Source of the DNA: an uncultured Prevotella sp.
GTDB lineage: Bacteria > Bacteroidota > Bacteroidia > Bacteroidales > Bacteroidaceae
Length of the DNA stretch: 64,000 bases
Direction: 5' to 3'
NCBI GenBank assembly: GCA_900770845.1
Contig: CAAGLS010000131.1
Coordinates: forward strand, 214-64,213
Under the pieces are notes generated by a model. That model had not been told where the DNA came from and searched no databases. It was given only the letters and a program-made list of their open reading frames with translations. The position numbers and the translations under genes were made by a program. Below, piece by piece: positions 1-46,894 of this stretch. Position 1 is the stretch's first letter, and the number at the start of each line of letters is the position of its first letter.

Positions 1-83
1 GTTGTCACGGACTATCGTGCCAGTTGTCACGAACTATCGTGGCAATTATCACAGACTATCGTGACAACTGCCACGAATGTTGT
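1..83. repeat. Tandem array of about 3.7 units of a 22-bp repeat (consensus caGTTGTCACGGACTATCGTGc). Each unit carries an imperfect 7-6-7 palindrome, TGTCACG-N6-CGTGACA. The array may be truncated by the window edge.
   Basis: Read directly from the sequence. 22-bp periodicity with an ACTATCGTG core at positions 13, 36 and 58. A near-identical 83-bp array occurs at 27201-27283. Confidence 0.8.
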
Positions 84-445: not shown

Positions 446-790
446 TCAGAGTTTGTTGCCGGCCTTCGGAAACACCACTGTCGGCTTGAAGTGCTTGGCC
501 TCCTCGAAGTCCATCAGCGCGTAGCTGATGATGATGACCTCGTCGCCCACTTGGACCTTTCGCGCGGCGGCGCCATTGAGGCAGATGCAGCCCGACCCGC
601 GCTCGCCCGCGATGACGTAGGTCTCGAAGCGCTCGCCGTTGTTGTTGTCCACAATCTGCACCTTCTCGCCGGCTATCATGTTGGCCGCGTCCATCAGGTC
701 CTGGTCGATGGTGATGGAGCCCATATAGTGGAGGTTGGCCTCCGTGACCGTGGCGCAATGGAGCTTTGATTTCAACACTTCTATCATCAT
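446..790 (-). CDS. panD: Aspartate 1-decarboxylase proenzyme (PanD)
   Basis: 114-aa ORF with the canonical pyruvoyl-dependent PanD sequence (...[19 protein letters not shown]...), and adjacent to panC. Confidence 0.9.
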
Positions 791-4277: not shown

Positions 4278-5525
4278 ATGATGAGACTTTCACTTATCGC
4301 AGCAATGTTCCTGTTGGCCTCACAGCATTCGGCGGGCCAGCGAAATGAGATCCTCAACGACCGCATTGCCTCACTGCAGGTGGTGGCCGGAGACGACTGG
4401 CTGTCCATGCCCGTGGTCAACCTTGACGGCTCCACACCCCTCAACGTCTCCTTCGACGACCTCACCCACGACTATACCCGCTACTGCTACAAGCTCATCC
4501 ATTGTGAGGCCGACTGGACTCCGTCGGACCAGCTCTTCACCAGCGACTACTGCGAGGGGTTCAGCGAGGGCAACACCATCGACGACATTTCCCAGTCCAT
4601 CACCACCAACACCCTCTACACGCACTACCGGCTGCGGCTTCCCAACCCGCAATGCCGCATGAAGATGAGCGGCAACTACAAGCTCGTGGTCTATGACGGC
4701 AACGATGAGGACAACGTGGCCTTCACGGCCTGCTTCATGGTGGTGGAGCCGGTGATGGGAGTGGGGCTCGGCATCGTTACCAACACCGACGTCGACGTGA
4801 ACAACCGGCACCAGCAGGTGGAGATGGACCTGCGATACAACGATGCGTTCAACATCACCGACTATCGGCGGCAAATCAAGACTGTGGTGCTGCAGAACGG
4901 AAGATGGGACAACGCCGTGTGGAACTCCCAGCCACAGTATGTCACCAACGAGGGACTGCGGTGGCAACACTGCCGCCAGCTGATTTTCCCCGGCGGCAAC
5001 GAATTCCGCAAGTTTGAGATGCTCGACATGAACCACACGACAATGGGTCTGGAGAACATCCATTGGGATGGCCGTCAATACCAAGCCTATGTGTGGACCG
5101 ACGAGCCGCGCAAGAACTATGTCTACGACGAGGATGCCAATGGCGCTTTCTATATCCGCAACAGCGACAACGTGGAGAACGATGTGGCCAGCGACTACGC
5201 CTTGGTCCATTTCCGCCTTATGGCACCTCCGCAGTCTGACGGCATCTATCTCAATGGTGTCTGGACCAGCGACCGGTTTGTCCCCAAATACAAGTTGGAG
5301 TACAATCAGGCAAGCCAGAGCTACGAGGTGGCCGTCCCCTTGAAGCAAGGCTACTACAGCTATCAATATCTGTCGGTCGGGCCAGACGGCAAGGCGAGTC
5401 CTTTGCTTACGGAGGGCAACTTCTATCAGACGGAAAACACCTATCAGGCACTGGTGTACTACCGGGGAAACGGCGACCGCACGGACCGTCTCGTAGGCTA
5501 CCAGAACGTGAAATTCAAATTGTAG
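4278..5525 (+). CDS. Secreted hypothetical protein (DUF5103-like)
   Basis: N-terminal signal peptide (MMRLSLIAAMFLLASQHSAGQ). 415 aa. Family assignment tentative. Confidence 0.55.
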   Translation: MMRLSLIAAMFLLASQHSAGQRNEILNDRIASLQVVAGDDWLSMPVVNLDGSTPLNVSFDDLTHDYTRYCYKLIHCEADWTPSDQLFTSDYCEGFSEGNTIDDISQSITTNTLYTHYRLRLPNPQCRMKMSGNYKLVVYDGNDEDNVAFTACFMVVEPVMGVGLGIVTNTDVDVNNRHQQVEMDLRYNDAFNITDYRRQIKTVVLQNGRWDNAVWNSQPQYVTNEGLRWQHCRQLIFPGGNEFRKFEMLDMNHTTMGLENIHWDGRQYQAYVWTDEPRKNYVYDEDANGAFYIRNSDNVENDVASDYALVHFRLMAPPQSDGIYLNGVWTSDRFVPKYKLEYNQASQSYEVAVPLKQGYYSYQYLSVGPDGKASPLLTEGNFYQTENTYQALVYYRGNGDRTDRLVGYQNVKFKL

Positions 5526-5533
5526 CGAAGCCC

Positions 5534-6466
5534 ATGAAAATATCGTTCATCATTACTACTTACAACCTGCCCGCGGGGCTGCTCGTGGAGTGCGTCAACA
5601 GCATCCTGAGGCTTTCCCTGAGGCCTACCGAGCGAGAGGTCATCGTCATCGACGACGGCTCCGACATGAGTCCGCTCGAAGACTTGCTTGAGACTTCCGA
5701 AGACATCCTCTACCTGAGGCAGCCCAATGGCGGACTCTCCGCGGCACGCAACATGGGACTCCGCGTGGCCTCGGGCGACTACATCCAGTTTGTCGACGGC
5801 GACGATATGATTATCGCTGCTCCCTACGAGCATTGCCTCGACTTGGTGAGATTCCACAATCCCGACATGGTCTTGTTCAAGCTCTCCGATTCCGCCAACC
5901 AAAAGACTTCCTTCTCCTACGATGGTCCTGTGGACGGGGCGCAGTACATGCGCGACAACAACCTCAATGGCTCGGCCTGTGGCTATATCTTCAGGCGTTC
6001 CATCCTCGGCGACTTGCGCTTCACCCCCAAGACGCTCCATGAGGACGAGGAGTTCACCCCCCTGTTGGTGCTGCGCGCCCAGCGCATCTTCTGCGGCGAC
6101 TGTGCGGCCTATTACTACCGTCAGCGCAAGGAATCCATCATCCACAAGAAGAGCGGGAACCACCACCTTCGCCGGCTGATGGACATGGAGCGGGTGATAG
6201 GCCGATTGGTGGATGTGGCCGACAAGCTGCCTGTTGATGGCAAAGCGGCCTTGGAACGGCGGATAGCGCAGCTCACGATGGACTATCTCTACAATACCAT
6301 CAAGCTCACCCACAGCCGACGCCATCTGGAAGAGACCATGGAGAGGCTCCGCGACCACGGCCTCTATCCCTTGCCCGACAAGAACTATACGCGCAAGTAC
6401 CAGTTGTTCCGCAAGGCCATCGACACCAAAGTGGGACGCGACATGATGCTCATGCTCATCAGATAG
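5534..6466 (+). CDS. Glycosyltransferase family 2
   Basis: N-terminal ISFIITTYN...VIVIDDGSD...DGDD motifs of GT-A/GT2 enzymes. Confidence 0.85.
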   Translation: MKISFIITTYNLPAGLLVECVNSILRLSLRPTEREVIVIDDGSDMSPLEDLLETSEDILYLRQPNGGLSAARNMGLRVASGDYIQFVDGDDMIIAAPYEHCLDLVRFHNPDMVLFKLSDSANQKTSFSYDGPVDGAQYMRDNNLNGSACGYIFRRSILGDLRFTPKTLHEDEEFTPLLVLRAQRIFCGDCAAYYYRQRKESIIHKKSGNHHLRRLMDMERVIGRLVDVADKLPVDGKAALERRIAQLTMDYLYNTIKLTHSRRHLEETMERLRDHGLYPLPDKNYTRKYQLFRKAIDTKVGRDMMLMLIR

Positions 6467-26911: not shown

Positions 26912-26948
26912 CCCTGTTCGCCTCTTGCCCCCTGGGGGTGGTGTGATC

Positions 26949-27033
26949 AAACGCGTTTGTTTTTTCTTCTGTCGATTTGAGCCACGTTTTTAGTAGGTCC
27001 GGCTGCATCGCTGAAGAAAAAACAAACGCGTTT
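26949..27033. promoter_or_regulatory. Long hairpin: two perfect 21-bp inverted arms (AAACGCGTTTGTTTTTTCTTC / GAAGAAAAAACAAACGCGTTT) separated by a 43-nt loop. Lies just after the nitroreductase gene.
   Basis: Read from the sequence. Could act as a terminator for the upstream gene, or be part of the structured leader of the downstream gene. Confidence 0.5.
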
Positions 27034-27200
27034 ATGGTTGGTTCCAGGCATAGGATTGAAGTGGGTTGCCTTTCACCCACCTTTCCTTATTCCTGACTGT
27101 ATCAATGAATTTCCCCTAAGCTTGTGTGTGCCATTGTGTTATGGCAAGTCCCGTATAAGCCATCTACGTGCGAAAGACCATCTGCTTCTGTTCTGTGTCA

Positions 27201-27283
27201 GTTGTCGCGGACTATCGTGCCAGTTGTCACGGACTATCGTGACAATTGACACGGACTATCGTGACAACTGTCACAAATGTTGT
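27201..27283. repeat. Second copy of the 83-bp tandem 22-bp palindromic-unit module seen at 1-83
   Basis: About 90% identical to positions 1-83 (gttgtcGcggactatcgtgccagttgtcacgGactatcgtgAcaattGacacGgactatcgtgacaactgTcacAaatgttgt). Confidence 0.85.
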
Positions 27284-27304
27284 CCGACGCTTCTTGAAGA
27301 CTCC

Positions 27305-27430
27305 GAAGAGCGGGCTTATGCTGTTCTTCGTCGGTTTGCACTACTTTCGGATAAGGTAGGTGGCATCTCGGAAGAAAAAATAAGCGGGCTTATTTTGTTC
27401 TTCGCCCGATTTACACTACCTTTGCAGCGA
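27305..27430. repeat. Two copies of an about 42-47-bp unit (agcgggcttatNctgttcttcgNcgNtttRcactacYtt…) spaced about 74 bp apart. The second copy contains the -7 promoter box of the DUF4494 gene.
   Basis: Read from the sequence, 27309-27350 versus 27383-27429. Confidence 0.6.
27417..27424 (+). promoter_or_regulatory. -7 promoter box TACCTTTG for the DUF4494 gene
   Basis: Match to TAnnTTTG, 28 bp upstream of the ATG at 27452. Confidence 0.45.
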
Positions 27431-27451
27431 AAAGAAAAAAATATCGAAAAA

Positions 27452-45174: not shown

Positions 45175-46380
45175 TTATTCGTCGTCCACTCTGCCGGGGT
45201 AGGACTCCAAGGCCTTCTTTAGCACGACCAAGGCGCGGCAGAGGTCTTCCTTTTTCAGCACGTAGGCTATTCTCACCTGGTTGCGCCCGGTGCCGGGAGT
45301 GGTGTAGAAGCCGGCGGCTGGAGCCATCATCACGGTCTCGCCCTCATAGTCGAACTCTTCCAGGCACCAGCGGCAGAACTTCTCGCTGTCGTCGACGGGG
45401 AGTTTGGCCACCGTGTAGAAAGCTCCCATTGGGATGGGCGAGTAGACGCCTTTGATGCGGTTCAGCCCGTCGATGAGGCATTTGCGGCGCTCGCAATATT
45501 CGTCATACACCTCGCGATAATAGTCCTGGGGAGCGTCGAGTGAGGCCTCGGCCACAATCTGTCCCAAGAGTGGGGGAGAGAGGCGGGCCTGGCAGAATTT
45601 CATCACGGTCTGCCTCACCTCGGCGTTCTTTGTTATCAGGCAGCCAATGCGGATGCCGCATTCGCTGTAGCGTTTCGACACGGAGTCGATGAGCACCGTG
45701 TTCTGCTCTATGCCCTCCAAGTGCATGGCCGAGATATAGGGAGAGCCCGTGTAGATATATTCGCGGTAAACCTCGTCGGAGAAGAGGTAAAGGTCGTATT
45801 TCTTCACCAAATCGCGAATTTGGTTCATCTCGCGGCGTGTGTAGAGGTAGCCCGTAGGGTTGTTGGGGTTGCAGATCATGATGGCCCGCGTGTGCTCATT
45901 GATAAGCTTCTCAAACTGCTCCACGTGGGGCAGGGCGAAGCCCTCCTCTATGGTGGTGGGTATGGTGCGGATCTTGGCTCCCGCCGAAATGGCGAACGAC
46001 ACATAGTTGGCGTAGGCGGGCTCGGGGATGATGATCTCGTCTCCTGGGTTGAGACAACTCATGAAAGCGAAGAGCACGGCCTCGGAACCGCCGGCGGTGA
46101 TGATGATGTCGTCGGGTTCCACGATGATGTTGAATCTCTTGTAGAACGCGCATAGCTTCTCCCTGTAGCTGAGGAATCCCTGGGAGGGAGAGTATTCGAG
46201 CACTTTGCGGTCGATGTGCTTCAGGGCGTCGAGTCCACATTGGGGAGTGGGCAGGTCGGGCTGACCGATGTTCAGGTGGTAGACTTTGATTCCACGGTTT
46301 CGTGCCGCTGCTGCCAAAGGAGCCAATTTCCTGATTGGTGACTCGGGCATTTCCAAACCACGATTTGATATTTTTGGCAT
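45175..46380 (-). CDS. Pyridoxal-phosphate-dependent aminotransferase, class I/II (aspartate/aromatic aminotransferase-like)
   Basis: ORF 45175..46404, start moved to MPKISNRG. Typical AAT fold sequence (…SKRYSECGIRIG…). Confidence 0.8.
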   Translation of the reverse strand: MPKISNRGLEMPESPIRKLAPLAAAARNRGIKVYHLNIGQPDLPTPQCGLDALKHIDRKVLEYSPSQGFLSYREKLCAFYKRFNIIVEPDDIIITAGGSEAVLFAFMSCLNPGDEIIIPEPAYANYVSFAISAGAKIRTIPTTIEEGFALPHVEQFEKLINEHTRAIMICNPNNPTGYLYTRREMNQIRDLVKKYDLYLFSDEVYREYIYTGSPYISAMHLEGIEQNTVLIDSVSKRYSECGIRIGCLITKNAEVRQTVMKFCQARLSPPLLGQIVAEASLDAPQDYYREVYDEYCERRKCLIDGLNRIKGVYSPIPMGAFYTVAKLPVDDSEKFCRWCLEEFDYEGETVMMAPAAGFYTTPGTGRNQVRIAYVLKKEDLCRALVVLKKALESYPGRVDDE

Positions 46381-46539
46381 AGCAATTAAATTTAATATTA
46401 GCACGCAAAGATAACGATTTTATTTTAGACGCAGGATTTTTTTGGGGAAAATTATTGATTCTATTTCAACGTTTTCTTTGTTCATTATCACTTCATGTTC
46501 AGCTTCCTCCCGTTTTGGGAGACGCAGGGCGGACGATGG

Positions 46540-46760
46540 GGGCGGAGGTCAGACTCGAGTCTGACGCACGGGACGAGCGGCGGAGGGCGTGGGTCGATGG
46601 GTCTGACGAGCGTCGGACGCGGGTCTGTCGAACGTCGGACGCGGGTCTGTCGAACGTCAGACGACGGGGCGACGGACGTCAGACAGTAGTCTGACGCACA
46701 GGGACGGGGAGGAAGGCATGGGGACGGGGAGGAAGACGCATGGGGACGGGGGCGGCGAAA
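46540..46760. repeat. GC-rich (about 68%) block of direct and inverted repeats. It holds two copies of GTCAGAC-N4-GTCTGACGCAC(A)GGGACG (at 46548 and 46678), a 2x22-bp tandem cgtcggacgcgggtctgtcgaa (46611-46654), and 3x GGGGACGGGG(AGGAAG).
   Basis: Read from the sequence. Lies in the divergent promoter region between the aminotransferase and the NTP-transferase operon. Confidence 0.6.
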
Positions 46761-46856
46761 GGAGGTCGATGTGGCCGTCACTTGTCTTTGCGCATTGGAT
46801 TCTATGAAAAAAAACTAAAAACAAAGGATTAGTTTTCTCAATAGATAAATAATATG

Positions 46857-46864
46857 TATCTTTG
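46857..46864 (+). promoter_or_regulatory. -7 promoter box TATCTTTG for the NTP-transferase operon
   Basis: Match to TAnnTTTG, 31 bp upstream of the ATG at 46895. Confidence 0.45.
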
Positions 46865-46894
46865 CAACCGAATTAAGGTAAAATCGTTAACGAT

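What the first reader, a model, noticed from the sequence alone, without database searches (positions are those of the whole stretch)
1..83. An 83-bp module of three tandem 22-bp palindrome-bearing repeats occurs twice, 27 kb apart
Positions 1-83 and 27201-27283 are about 90% identical. Each is built from about 3.7 direct repeats of a 22-bp unit, and each unit contains a 7-6-7 inverted repeat (TGTCACG-GACTAT-CGTGACA). The 22-bp phasing is two helical turns, so successive palindromes would sit on the same DNA face. That is the architecture of an array of dimeric transcription-factor sites (operator or iteron-like) rather than random simple sequence. Both copies are in non-coding DNA: one downstream of panD at the window edge, the other inside the DUF4494 leader. 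Their conservation in sequence and unit order suggests a dispersed functional cis-element or a small mobile or RNA element. I do not recognise the motif as a known Bacteroidota regulator site.
Basis: seen in the sequence. Interest (0 to 1): 0.65.

Follow-up and report, generated by a model that had tools for sequence, protein, structure and literature searches.

The report
Dispersed 22-bp palindromic repeat module
The two 83-bp stretches are real copies of a roughly 100-bp non-coding repeat that occurs at ten or more intergenic sites in one uncultured gut Prevotella lineage; it looks like mobile-element-derived repeat DNA rather than a gene-control site, so it is fairly ordinary.

Summary
Window 1-83 and 27201-27283 are about 90% identical and are built from 22-bp units (TTGnCACRRACTATCGTGnCA).

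The true element is about 100 bp: a degenerate 22-bp leader (CGCTTGCCCAAGWTnYGTGnCA), usually three full units, and a truncated tail. Copy A is cut by the window edge.

- **Distribution.** An exact-pattern scan found the module in 1 of 185,579 species genomes, a Bacteroidales MAG, and in pig and human gut metagenomes. I found ten distinct intergenic sites. It is absent from sister taxa, phages and plasmids.
- **Stability.** At orthologous sites it persists in every strain sampled, but the unit number varies from 2 to 4 and units are reshuffled.
- **Context.** Flanking genes share no function, and most sites look untranscribed.
- **Structure.** There is no covariation for a hairpin. The middle base of each arm is essentially random and usually mismatched.
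- **Origin.** A homologous 22-bp array sits inside a 663-bp MITE with terminal inverted repeats and a target-site duplication. That MITE is present in relatives and absent from the window.

Best reading: a lineage-specific dispersed minisatellite of mobile-element origin, similar to BrickBuilt in Porphyromonas gingivalis, and probably neutral. A role as a protein-binding array is not excluded. It is a new member of a known kind, of low to moderate interest.

The parts
1..83 (+). Module copy A (site s1), cut by the window edge. Units at 1-22, 23-44 and 45-66; degenerate tail 67-83 (ACTGCCACGAATGTTGT). The leader unit lies left of position 1.
   Evidence: The orthologues L005, L021 and L041-L050 show the missing leader CGCTTGCC(C/T)AAGATGTGTGGCA. 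The copy lies 358 bp beyond the panD stop. In L005 a small lipoprotein gene with its terminator converges from the other side.
27179..27200 (+). Degenerate leader unit of copy B (CATCTGCTTCTGTTCTGTGTCA).
   Evidence: Alignment of the ten sites gives the leader consensus CGCTTGCCCAAGWTnYGTGnCA.
27201..27266 (+). Three full 22-bp units of copy B (site s2), at 27201-27222, 27223-27244 and 27245-27266.
   Evidence: Conserved with 3 units in all 10 further strains (L024-L033), with substitutions mainly at unit positions 5, 7, 9, 19 and 20.
27267..27283 (+). Truncated, degenerate tail unit of copy B (ACTGTCACAAATGTTGT). Weaker similarity to copy A continues for about 25 bp more (GCTT..GAAGA).

Best explanation
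The module is one member of a lineage-specific family of dispersed, non-coding minisatellite elements. Each is about 100 bp: a degenerate leader, 2-4 (usually 3) palindrome-bearing 22-bp units, and a truncated tail.

The likely history is as follows (inferred). The array arose in, or was carried by, small non-autonomous mobile elements (MITEs) of this uncultured gut Prevotella lineage. It was copied as a whole block to at least ten intergenic sites. It now sits there as stable, probably neutral DNA.

The arrays change by replication slippage or unequal exchange and by gene conversion between units. This homogenises most unit positions and shuffles the few variable ones.

Because the arms alternate in orientation, the whole block can fold back into a hairpin or cruciform about 40 bp long. 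That would explain why copies survive mostly in untranscribed spacers, why arrays stay short, and why the arms keep a central mismatch (all inferred).

What is shown: the dispersal, the shared architecture, the lineage restriction, the unit-number variation, the absence of covariation and the homology to a MITE-borne array. What is inferred: the mobilisation mechanism and the neutrality.
For: 1. **Dispersed family with fixed architecture.** Exact two-unit pattern scans gave 6 loci in one MAG and 17 metagenome contigs. By their flanks these collapse to 10 unrelated sites. All share the same leader, units and tail, and similarity stops beyond them.
2. **Lineage restriction.** Only 1 of 185,579 species representatives matched. 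There were no hits in viral contigs, plasmids or phages. Relatives whose DUF4494 protein is 80-95% identical lack the module in the loci fetched.
3. **Minisatellite dynamics.** Site s4 has 3-unit and 2-unit alleles, and so does s8. Site s1 has a 4-unit allele in L044. Register shifts are seen at s5 and s7.
4. **No regulon.** Pfam assigns the neighbours to TopoIII, a CCG-domain protein (PF02754), DUF3584, PheS, a carboxylase, MutS2, YaaA, an ATPase and DUF2807. None is a transposase or a regulator.
5. **No RNA or structure signal.** Rfam gave nothing above threshold. The RNAalifold covariation term is -0.21. Unit positions 5 and 20 pair no more often than chance in any register.
6. **Mobile-element link.** A 663-bp MITE with terminal inverted repeat CCTTAATTCCGCAAC and target-site duplication TTCAT is present in L059-L066 and absent at window ~46481. 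It contains a 22-bp array that the module's profile hits at E=9e-5. The same array appears in another context behind a module-type leader.
Against: - No terminal inverted repeats distinct from the array, no target-site duplication and no empty site were found for any module. Mobility is therefore inferred, not shown.
- Flanks of the ten sites show no similarity to the backbone of the array-bearing MITE.
- In orthologous pairs the conserved unit positions diverge less than flanking non-coding DNA (8/348 against 145/2252, p=0.0013). The five variable positions diverge more (17/114, p=0.0017). This could reflect purifying selection on a binding motif rather than gene conversion. The position classes were partly defined on the same data, and most loci were found with a pattern that fixes those positions.
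- The unit number is narrowly centred on 3, unlike BrickBuilt (1-22.8 units).
- My first, rough gene calls put 6 of the 10 sites between divergent genes.
Confidence: 0.6

Rival explanations
1. The module is a phased array of binding sites for a lineage-specific DNA-binding protein. The protein could be a repressor or activator, an iteron- or centromere-like binder, a nucleoid protein, or a domesticated or trans-acting transposase. It would bind three or four palindromes (GTGnCA-NN-TGnCAC, or TTGnCAC-N8-GTGnCAA) placed two helical turns apart on one DNA face.
For: - The period is exactly 22 bp and the modal unit number is conserved.
- The constraint pattern is strongly non-uniform. ACTATCG, CAC and CA are nearly invariant, while the central arm base is free.
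- Conserved positions diverge more slowly than flanking non-coding DNA in orthologous pairs.
- Most sites are untranscribed spacers close to promoters. Examples are 44 and 86 bp from -7 boxes at s3 and 104 bp at s10.
Against: - Copies share degenerate end units, so they are homologous blocks rather than independently evolved sites.
- The family is confined to one species-level lineage.
- Neighbouring genes are functionally unrelated, and no regulator, Rep, ParB or transposase gene lies next to any copy.
- Distances to promoters are very variable, and s1 lies between convergent genes.
- The two arms differ: T dominates at position 5, while position 20 is random.
- The conservation statistics are confounded by the search pattern and by gene conversion.
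- The published Bacteroidetes LexA motifs do not match.
Confidence: 0.2
2. The module is a REP/BIME- or REPIN-like element: hairpin-forming palindromic units spread by a RAYT (IS200/IS605-type tyrosine transposase) through single-stranded DNA.
For: - The units are imperfect palindromes in alternating orientation, and the whole block folds as a long hairpin (z about -5.5 to -6 on both strands).
- A persistent mismatch in the stem recalls the imperfect hairpins that these transposases recognise (from my own knowledge of that transposase family, not tested here).
- The copies are extragenic.
Against: - Copy number is low. The strict pattern found six loci in the one matching MAG and ten distinct sites across all data, against typically tens to hundreds for REPs.
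- There is no GTAG or CGTC tag, and the stem and loop do not fit the described families, which have 8-9 bp stems and 4-5 nt loops for the CGTC type (PMC3733652).
- Copies lie mainly in untranscribed spacers and promoter regions rather than 3' UTRs.
- There is no consistent orientation relative to GC skew.
- No Y1 transposase lies next to any copy.
- A genome-wide search for a RAYT could not be run.
Confidence: 0.08
3. The module is a structured non-coding RNA or a cis-acting mRNA element such as a terminator, stabiliser or leader.
For: The predicted fold is stable: -36 to -55 kcal/mol, and no shuffle did as well.
Against: - Both strands fold equally well, as any palindrome does.
- There is no Rfam family; the only hits were sub-threshold miRNA-hairpin matches.
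- There is no covariation.
- Copies lie beyond the neighbours' terminators or upstream of promoters, with no -7 box directed into them.
- Orientation relative to neighbouring genes varies.
Confidence: 0.04
4. The two window copies are the attL and attR direct repeats of a 27-kb integrated element.
For: There are two direct copies 27.2 kb apart.
Against: - The interval holds housekeeping genes, including panC, panD and the uvrD-helicase gene.
- Each copy is individually conserved in many strains.
- At least eight further solitary copies exist elsewhere, one of them 4.5 kb beyond the window.
- No integrase gene lies nearby.
Confidence: 0.02

Closest known systems
BrickBuilt minisatellite/MITE of Porphyromonas gingivalis (Klein et al. 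2015, PMC4596501)
   Same: - Both are in Bacteroidales.
- Both are head-to-tail repeats of 22-23 nt without spacers.
- Both occur at about 10-20 strictly intergenic copies and are species-restricted.
- Unit number differs between strains at the same locus.
[quoted passage not shown]
- Many BrickBuilt copies lack recognisable transposon ends.
- A homologous array here does sit inside a MITE with terminal inverted repeats.
   Different: - There is no sequence similarity.
- Here each unit is itself a near-palindrome.
- Unit number is narrow (2-4, against 1-22.8).
- The leader and tail are only degenerate units, not 285-318-nt arms with IS5-like terminal inverted repeats.
- No promoter motif lies inside the units, and promoter activity was not tested.
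REP / BIME / REPIN elements with RAYT transposases
   Same: Both are extragenic palindromic units in alternating orientation, separated by two alternating linkers, and able to form long hairpins.
   Different: - Copy number is much lower.
- There is no GTAG or CGTC tag.
- The arms are 7-8 bp half-sites rather than self-folding 20-40-nt REPs.
- Copies lie mostly outside transcribed regions.
- No RAYT was found nearby.
Iteron arrays and phage or plasmid operator arrays (for example 22-bp iterons of R6K or pPS10, lambda OR1-3) - comparison from my own knowledge
   Same: Both have three or four sites with a period of about 22 bp, which places them on one DNA face.
   Different: - Those arrays sit next to their rep or repressor gene and occur once per replicon.
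- This module occurs at 10 or more chromosomal sites with no such gene adjacent.
- It is absent from the plasmid and phage collections searched.

Membership tests
MITE (miniature inverted-repeat transposable element) | Terminal inverted repeats that match an IS family | tested here: not met
   No inverted repeats lie outside the array itself. The left end is a degenerate unit and the right end a truncated unit. By contrast, the three real MITEs nearby have clear terminal inverted repeats.
MITE (miniature inverted-repeat transposable element) | Target-site duplication and presence/absence polymorphism (empty sites) | tested here: not met
   No duplication is visible at any of the 10 sites. Every strain sampled at s1 (14 alleles), s2 (11) and s7 (3) carries the module. 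No empty site was recovered, because synteny is lost in sister taxa.
MITE (miniature inverted-repeat transposable element) | Multiple dispersed, homologous, non-coding copies under about 600 bp | tested here: met
   Ten distinct intergenic sites share the whole ~100-bp layout.
Dispersed minisatellite of BrickBuilt type | Head-to-tail short units without spacers, at several intergenic loci of one species, with unit number varying between strains | tested here: met
   Period 22, 10 loci, 2-4 units per allele, and one species representative out of 185,579.
Dispersed minisatellite of BrickBuilt type | Array embedded between a non-repetitive leader and tail that carry terminal inverted repeats | tested here: inconclusive
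   Not met for the module itself. It is met for a homologous 22-bp array inside the 663-bp MITE of L059-L066.
REP / REPIN-RAYT | Conserved GTAG or CGTC tag next to an imperfect palindrome of 20-40 nt | tested here: not met
   The unit logo has neither tag in the required position, and the stem and loop sizes do not fit (one search compared with PMC3733652).
REP / REPIN-RAYT | A RAYT (Y1 transposase) gene flanked by the repeats in the same genome | not testable with these tools
No Y1 transposase appears among the called or Pfam-scanned genes around any copy.
Transcription-factor operator array or regulon | Sites at a consistent position relative to the promoters of functionally related genes, conserved together with the regulator across related taxa | tested here: not met
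   Distances to -7 boxes run from 44 to more than 700 bp, and one site is convergent. The neighbours are unrelated. The module is absent from sister taxa.
Transcription-factor operator array or regulon | Specific binding by a protein | not testable with these tools
   This needs an EMSA, a pull-down or DAP-seq.
Structured RNA family | Match to a curated family, or compensatory base changes that support a fold | tested here: not met
   There was no Rfam hit at gathering score. E-value mode gave only sub-threshold miRNA-hairpin hits. The covariation term is -0.21, and only 1 of 27 pairs shows a two-sided change. The variable positions pair at or below chance.
Bacteroidetes SOS box | GGA-N5-TCC or CTAA-N5-TTAG palindrome | tested here: not met
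   The motifs come from PMC8565304. Neither is present in the unit consensus.

The most novel reading that the evidence does not exclude
The arrays are domesticated, mobile-element-derived landing pads for a lineage-specific DNA-binding protein, for instance a trans-acting or domesticated transposase or a nucleoid or partition-type protein. The protein would bind cooperatively to three or four sites phased two helical turns apart. Host-level selection would then keep the motif and the three-unit length at fixed chromosomal positions. Three copies in about 80 kb around this window would hint at a domain-specific role.
Probability: 0.12. Interest if true: 0.6.

Novelty: new member of a known kind. 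Interest (0 to 1): 0.27.

Why it matters
If the main reading is right, this adds one more family to the little-studied small repeats of gut Bacteroidales. The practical uses are modest:
- The repeat is a strain-typing marker, because unit number and variable positions differ between strains.
- It is a possible source of assembly breaks and recombination.
- It marks a genome unusually rich in MITEs.

It would matter more if the arrays turn out to bind a protein. That would be an example of repeat DNA spreading a ready-made, phased binding platform through a genome.

Tried and rejected
**Readings tested and rejected**
- Rfam at gathering score on the window and five loci gave nothing relevant; E-value mode gave only miRNA-like hairpin noise.
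- There are no tRNA or tmRNA genes in the window.
- There is no similarity to phage or plasmid records or to viral contigs.
- No paper in the library contains the motif string.
- The published Bacteroidetes LexA boxes do not fit.
- REP GTAG/CGTC families do not fit.
- By eye and from my own knowledge, I compared the module with the DnaA box (TTATNCACA), parS (TGTTNCACGTGAAACA), matS (GTGACRNYGTCAC), the sigma-54 promoter and the CRP-type TGTGA-N6-TCACA. There is no convincing match, mainly because the fourth base of GTGnCA is free.

**Tests that gave no signal**
- Orientation of copies against local GC skew shows no consistent bias.
- Flanks of the ten sites show no significant similarity to the backbone of the array-bearing MITE.
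- The second 22-bp repeat at 46599-46684 is not dispersed; nothing like it occurs elsewhere in 429 kb of fetched loci.

**Searches that failed**
- The search for an empty site through DUF4494 homologues (80-95% identity) failed because the upstream synteny differs.
- Three exact-protein look-ups found nothing, probably because my start codons differed from the called genes.

**A claim I revised**
- An early impression that arrays never exceed 3 units was overturned by the 4-unit allele in L044.

Full report
**1. The observation**

Window 1-83 and 27201-27283 align with 8 mismatches in 83 columns. Tandem Repeats Finder reports period 22 for both. The 18-nt core, allowing up to 3 mismatches, occurs at the six repeat units plus one 3-mismatch site in coding sequence. 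Shuffles give 0.05 expected. So the repeat is real and far beyond chance.

The stated coordinates are too narrow. A profile built from all copies matches 27173-27288 in the window. Aligning the copies in 22-nt register shows three parts:
- a degenerate leader unit, consensus CGCTTGCCCAAGWTnYGTGnCA;
- three full units;
- a truncated tail, ACTGYCACRRAT.

Beyond these, the flanks of different sites are unrelated. The exception is about 25 further bases shared by the two window copies. Copy A loses its leader to the window edge, but the orthologues L005, L021 and L041-L050 show it.

The 7-6-7 palindrome is perfect in only one of the six window units.

**2. Where else it occurs**

An exact pattern spanning two adjacent units matched one species representative out of 185,579. 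That is the MAG 'Bacteroidales bacterium W0P18.025', with six loci. It also matched 17 metagenome contigs from pig and human gut.

By their flanks these collapse, together with the window, into ten different intergenic sites, s1 to s10. One of them, s7, lies about 4.5 kb beyond the right end of the window.

There were no matches in viral contigs, plasmids or phages.

The source names for window proteins are 'MAG: Prevotella sp.' or 'Bacteroidales bacterium'. The nearest named homologues of the DUF4494 protein are Prevotellaceae, at about 73-76% identity.

Loci from relatives whose DUF4494 protein is 80-95% identical contain no module. They also have different upstream genes, so no empty site could be compared.

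The strict pattern misses copies. Site s2 in the pig-lineage strains reads ACTATCGTT in one unit. The number of copies per genome is therefore uncertain; I would guess some tens.

**3. Behaviour at orthologous sites**

Exact-protein look-ups gave further strains: ten at s2, ten at s1 and one at s7. Every strain carries the module.

Unit number varies:
- 3 is modal.
- 2-unit alleles occur at s4 and s8.
- One 4-unit allele occurs at s1, in L044.

At s5 and s7 two alleles differ as if the array had shifted by one unit while keeping three.

Other small elements come and go beside s2. A 200-bp element is present in L029 and a ~700-bp element in L030, L032 and L033. Both have terminal inverted repeats and target-site duplications. 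The lineage is therefore rich in active or recently active MITEs, whereas the module itself is static.

**4. Sequence constraint**

In 44 units the logo is R-T-T-G-t-C-A-C-R-R-A-C-T-A-T-C-G-T-G-N-C-A. Position 20 is essentially random and its palindromic partner, position 5, is mostly T.

Much of this conservation was imposed by my search pattern. Even so, among alleles found through proteins the changes also concentrate at positions 5, 7, 9, 10 and 20.

Orthologous pairs give these divergence figures:

| Sequence class | Differences | Rate | p against flank |
|---|---|---|---|
| Other (conserved) unit positions | 8/348 | 2.3% | 0.0013 |
| Flanking non-coding DNA | 145/2252 | 6.4% | - |
| Five variable unit positions | 17/114 | 14.9% | 0.0017 |

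Two explanations fit. One is purifying selection on a motif. The other is gene conversion between units, which erases new changes where units agree and shuffles states where they differ. The register shifts show that conversion does occur. I cannot separate the two explanations, and the position classes were partly defined on the same data.

**5. Structure**

The whole block folds as one imperfect hairpin of about 40 bp on either strand. Energies are -36 to -55 kcal/mol, and no shuffle did as well. Any alternating inverted repeat must fold this way.

Nothing indicates selection for pairing:
- Positions 5 and 20 form standard or wobble pairs in 25-40% of cases in the local, junction and long-hairpin registers. 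Chance gives 39%.
- RNAalifold gives a covariation term of -0.21 and leaves those positions unpaired.
- Rfam has no family for it.

**6. Genomic context**

All ten sites are intergenic.
- Site s1 lies between the 3' ends of panD and a small lipoprotein gene, beyond both terminator-like hairpins.
- Site s5 follows the pheS terminator (sequence shown there).
- Site s2 lies after a long inverted repeat downstream of the nitroreductase gene and 129 bp before the DUF4494 -7 box.
- Sites s3, s6, s7, s8 and s10 lie between divergent genes. At s7 one of these is the small SRP RNA gene.

Distances to the nearest -7 box range from 44 bp to more than 700 bp. Most copies therefore sit in DNA that is probably not transcribed. 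This inference rests on the Bacteroidetes promoter consensus TAnnTTTG, which I cite from my own knowledge.

Pfam assigns the neighbours to TopoIII, a CCG-domain protein (PF02754), DUF3584, PheS, a carboxylase subunit, MutS2, YaaA, an ATPase and DUF2807. There is no common theme. None is a transposase, a recombinase or an obvious regulator.

Orientation shows no consistent relation to local GC skew.

**7. Link to mobile elements**

The intergenic region at window 46351-46894 is 1.17 kb long in relatives L059-L066. The extra DNA is a 663-bp element with terminal inverted repeats (CCTTAATTCCGCAAC) and a 5-bp duplication (TTCAT). The window has the empty site.

Inside that element is a 22-bp array, CAACTGTCACACAACAATAGAA in 2.7 copies. 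The module's profile detects it at E=9e-5.

The same array, 83% identical over 90 bp, occurs in a different context in human-gut contigs. There it is preceded by CGCTTGCCCAAC, the module-type leader.

A third 22-bp palindromic array in L017 (GGGCAAGCACGTTGCCCAAGTG) has unit junctions that resemble the leader.

Related 22-bp arrays are thus parts of mobile elements in this lineage. However, the flanks of the ten module sites do not resemble the backbone of that MITE. The module itself has neither separate terminal repeats nor a target-site duplication.

**8. Interpretation**

The best-supported reading is a lineage-specific dispersed minisatellite of mobile-element origin. It was copied as a block to at least ten sites. 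It is now fixed there and evolves by slippage and conversion.

The closest described case is BrickBuilt of P. gingivalis (PMC4596501). Relative to BrickBuilt, this module has palindromic units, a narrow unit number and no long leader or tail.

It fails two defining tests for a MITE and the tag test for REPs. I therefore file it only under the broader kind, small dispersed intergenic repeats.

The exact two-turn phasing, the uneven constraint and the modal three units are what such a site would show. Against it stand the block homology that includes degenerate ends, the restriction to one lineage, the unrelated neighbours and the variable promoter distances. I give it about 0.2. RNA and att-site readings are unlikely.

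**9. Verdict**

This is a real feature that was correctly spotted and partly correctly interpreted. It is ordinary in kind and new in sequence. Interest is 0.27.

Noticed in passing
window 46599-46684 (within the G-rich spacer 46490-46785): A second, unrelated 22-bp tandem repeat (GGGTCTGACGAACGTCAGACGC, 3-4 units) has the same 7-2-7-6 layout of inverted arms. It is flanked by the single palindromes GTCAGACTCGAGTCTGAC and CGTCAGACAGTAGTCTGACG. It is not dispersed in the loci fetched, and in pig-lineage strains it is reduced to about one unit.
   Followed up: partly
window ~46476-46490 (CTTTGTTCAT^TATCAC); L059 964-1626: This is the empty insertion site of a 663-bp MITE (terminal inverted repeat CCTTAATTCCGCAAC, target-site duplication TTCAT) that is present in relatives L059-L066. 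The MITE carries a -7-box-like TAACTTTG just upstream of an internal 22-bp array that is homologous to the module.
   Followed up: partly
window 46693-46751: A G-rich 20-22-bp tandem repeat (GACGCATGGGGACGGGGAGGAA, 2.8 copies) lies directly after the second 22-bp array.
   Followed up: no
window 26949-26969 and 27013-27033: A 21-bp inverted repeat (AAACGCGTTTGTTTTTTCTTC / GAAGAAAAAACAAACGCGTTT) with a 43-nt loop sits just downstream of the nitroreductase gene. It is conserved in all strains at this site. It may be a terminator; its function is not established.
   Followed up: no
window 27308-27350 and 27382-27427; also L001 ~2400(-) and ~2585(-), L003 ~3435, L005 ~2296(-): A promoter cassette of about 45 bp (GCGGGCTTATTTTGTTCTTCGCCCGATTTnCACTAnCTTTGCA, ending in a -7 box) recurs almost verbatim at several unrelated promoters. 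It occurs as a degenerate tandem duplicate next to module copy B and on both sides of the module at s3.
   Followed up: partly
L029 5641-5840; L030, L032 and L033 ~5120-5720 (same intergenic region as window 26912-27451): Two further MITE-like insertions are polymorphic between strains beside copy B. One is ~200 bp (terminal repeat GGCTGGTTCTATAAATTAGG, duplication TGAAG). The other is ~600-700 bp (terminal repeat TTAGGGTGTTCA, duplication TAAGCAA).
   Followed up: partly
L017 2325-2401: A third 22-bp palindromic array (GGGCAAGCACGTTGCCCAAGTG, 3.3 units) has unit junctions (TTGCCCAAGTGGGGCA) that resemble the module's leader (TTGCCCAAGATGTGTGGCA).
   Followed up: no
L006 6409-6590 (about 4.4-4.6 kb right of the window end): A Bacteroidales small SRP RNA gene and a tRNA gene lie 150 bp from module copy s7, transcribed away from it.
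   Followed up: no
window 446-790: The panD ORF as listed (114 aa) is one codon longer than the gene called in public assemblies (113 aa), which is why the exact-protein look-up failed.
   Followed up: no
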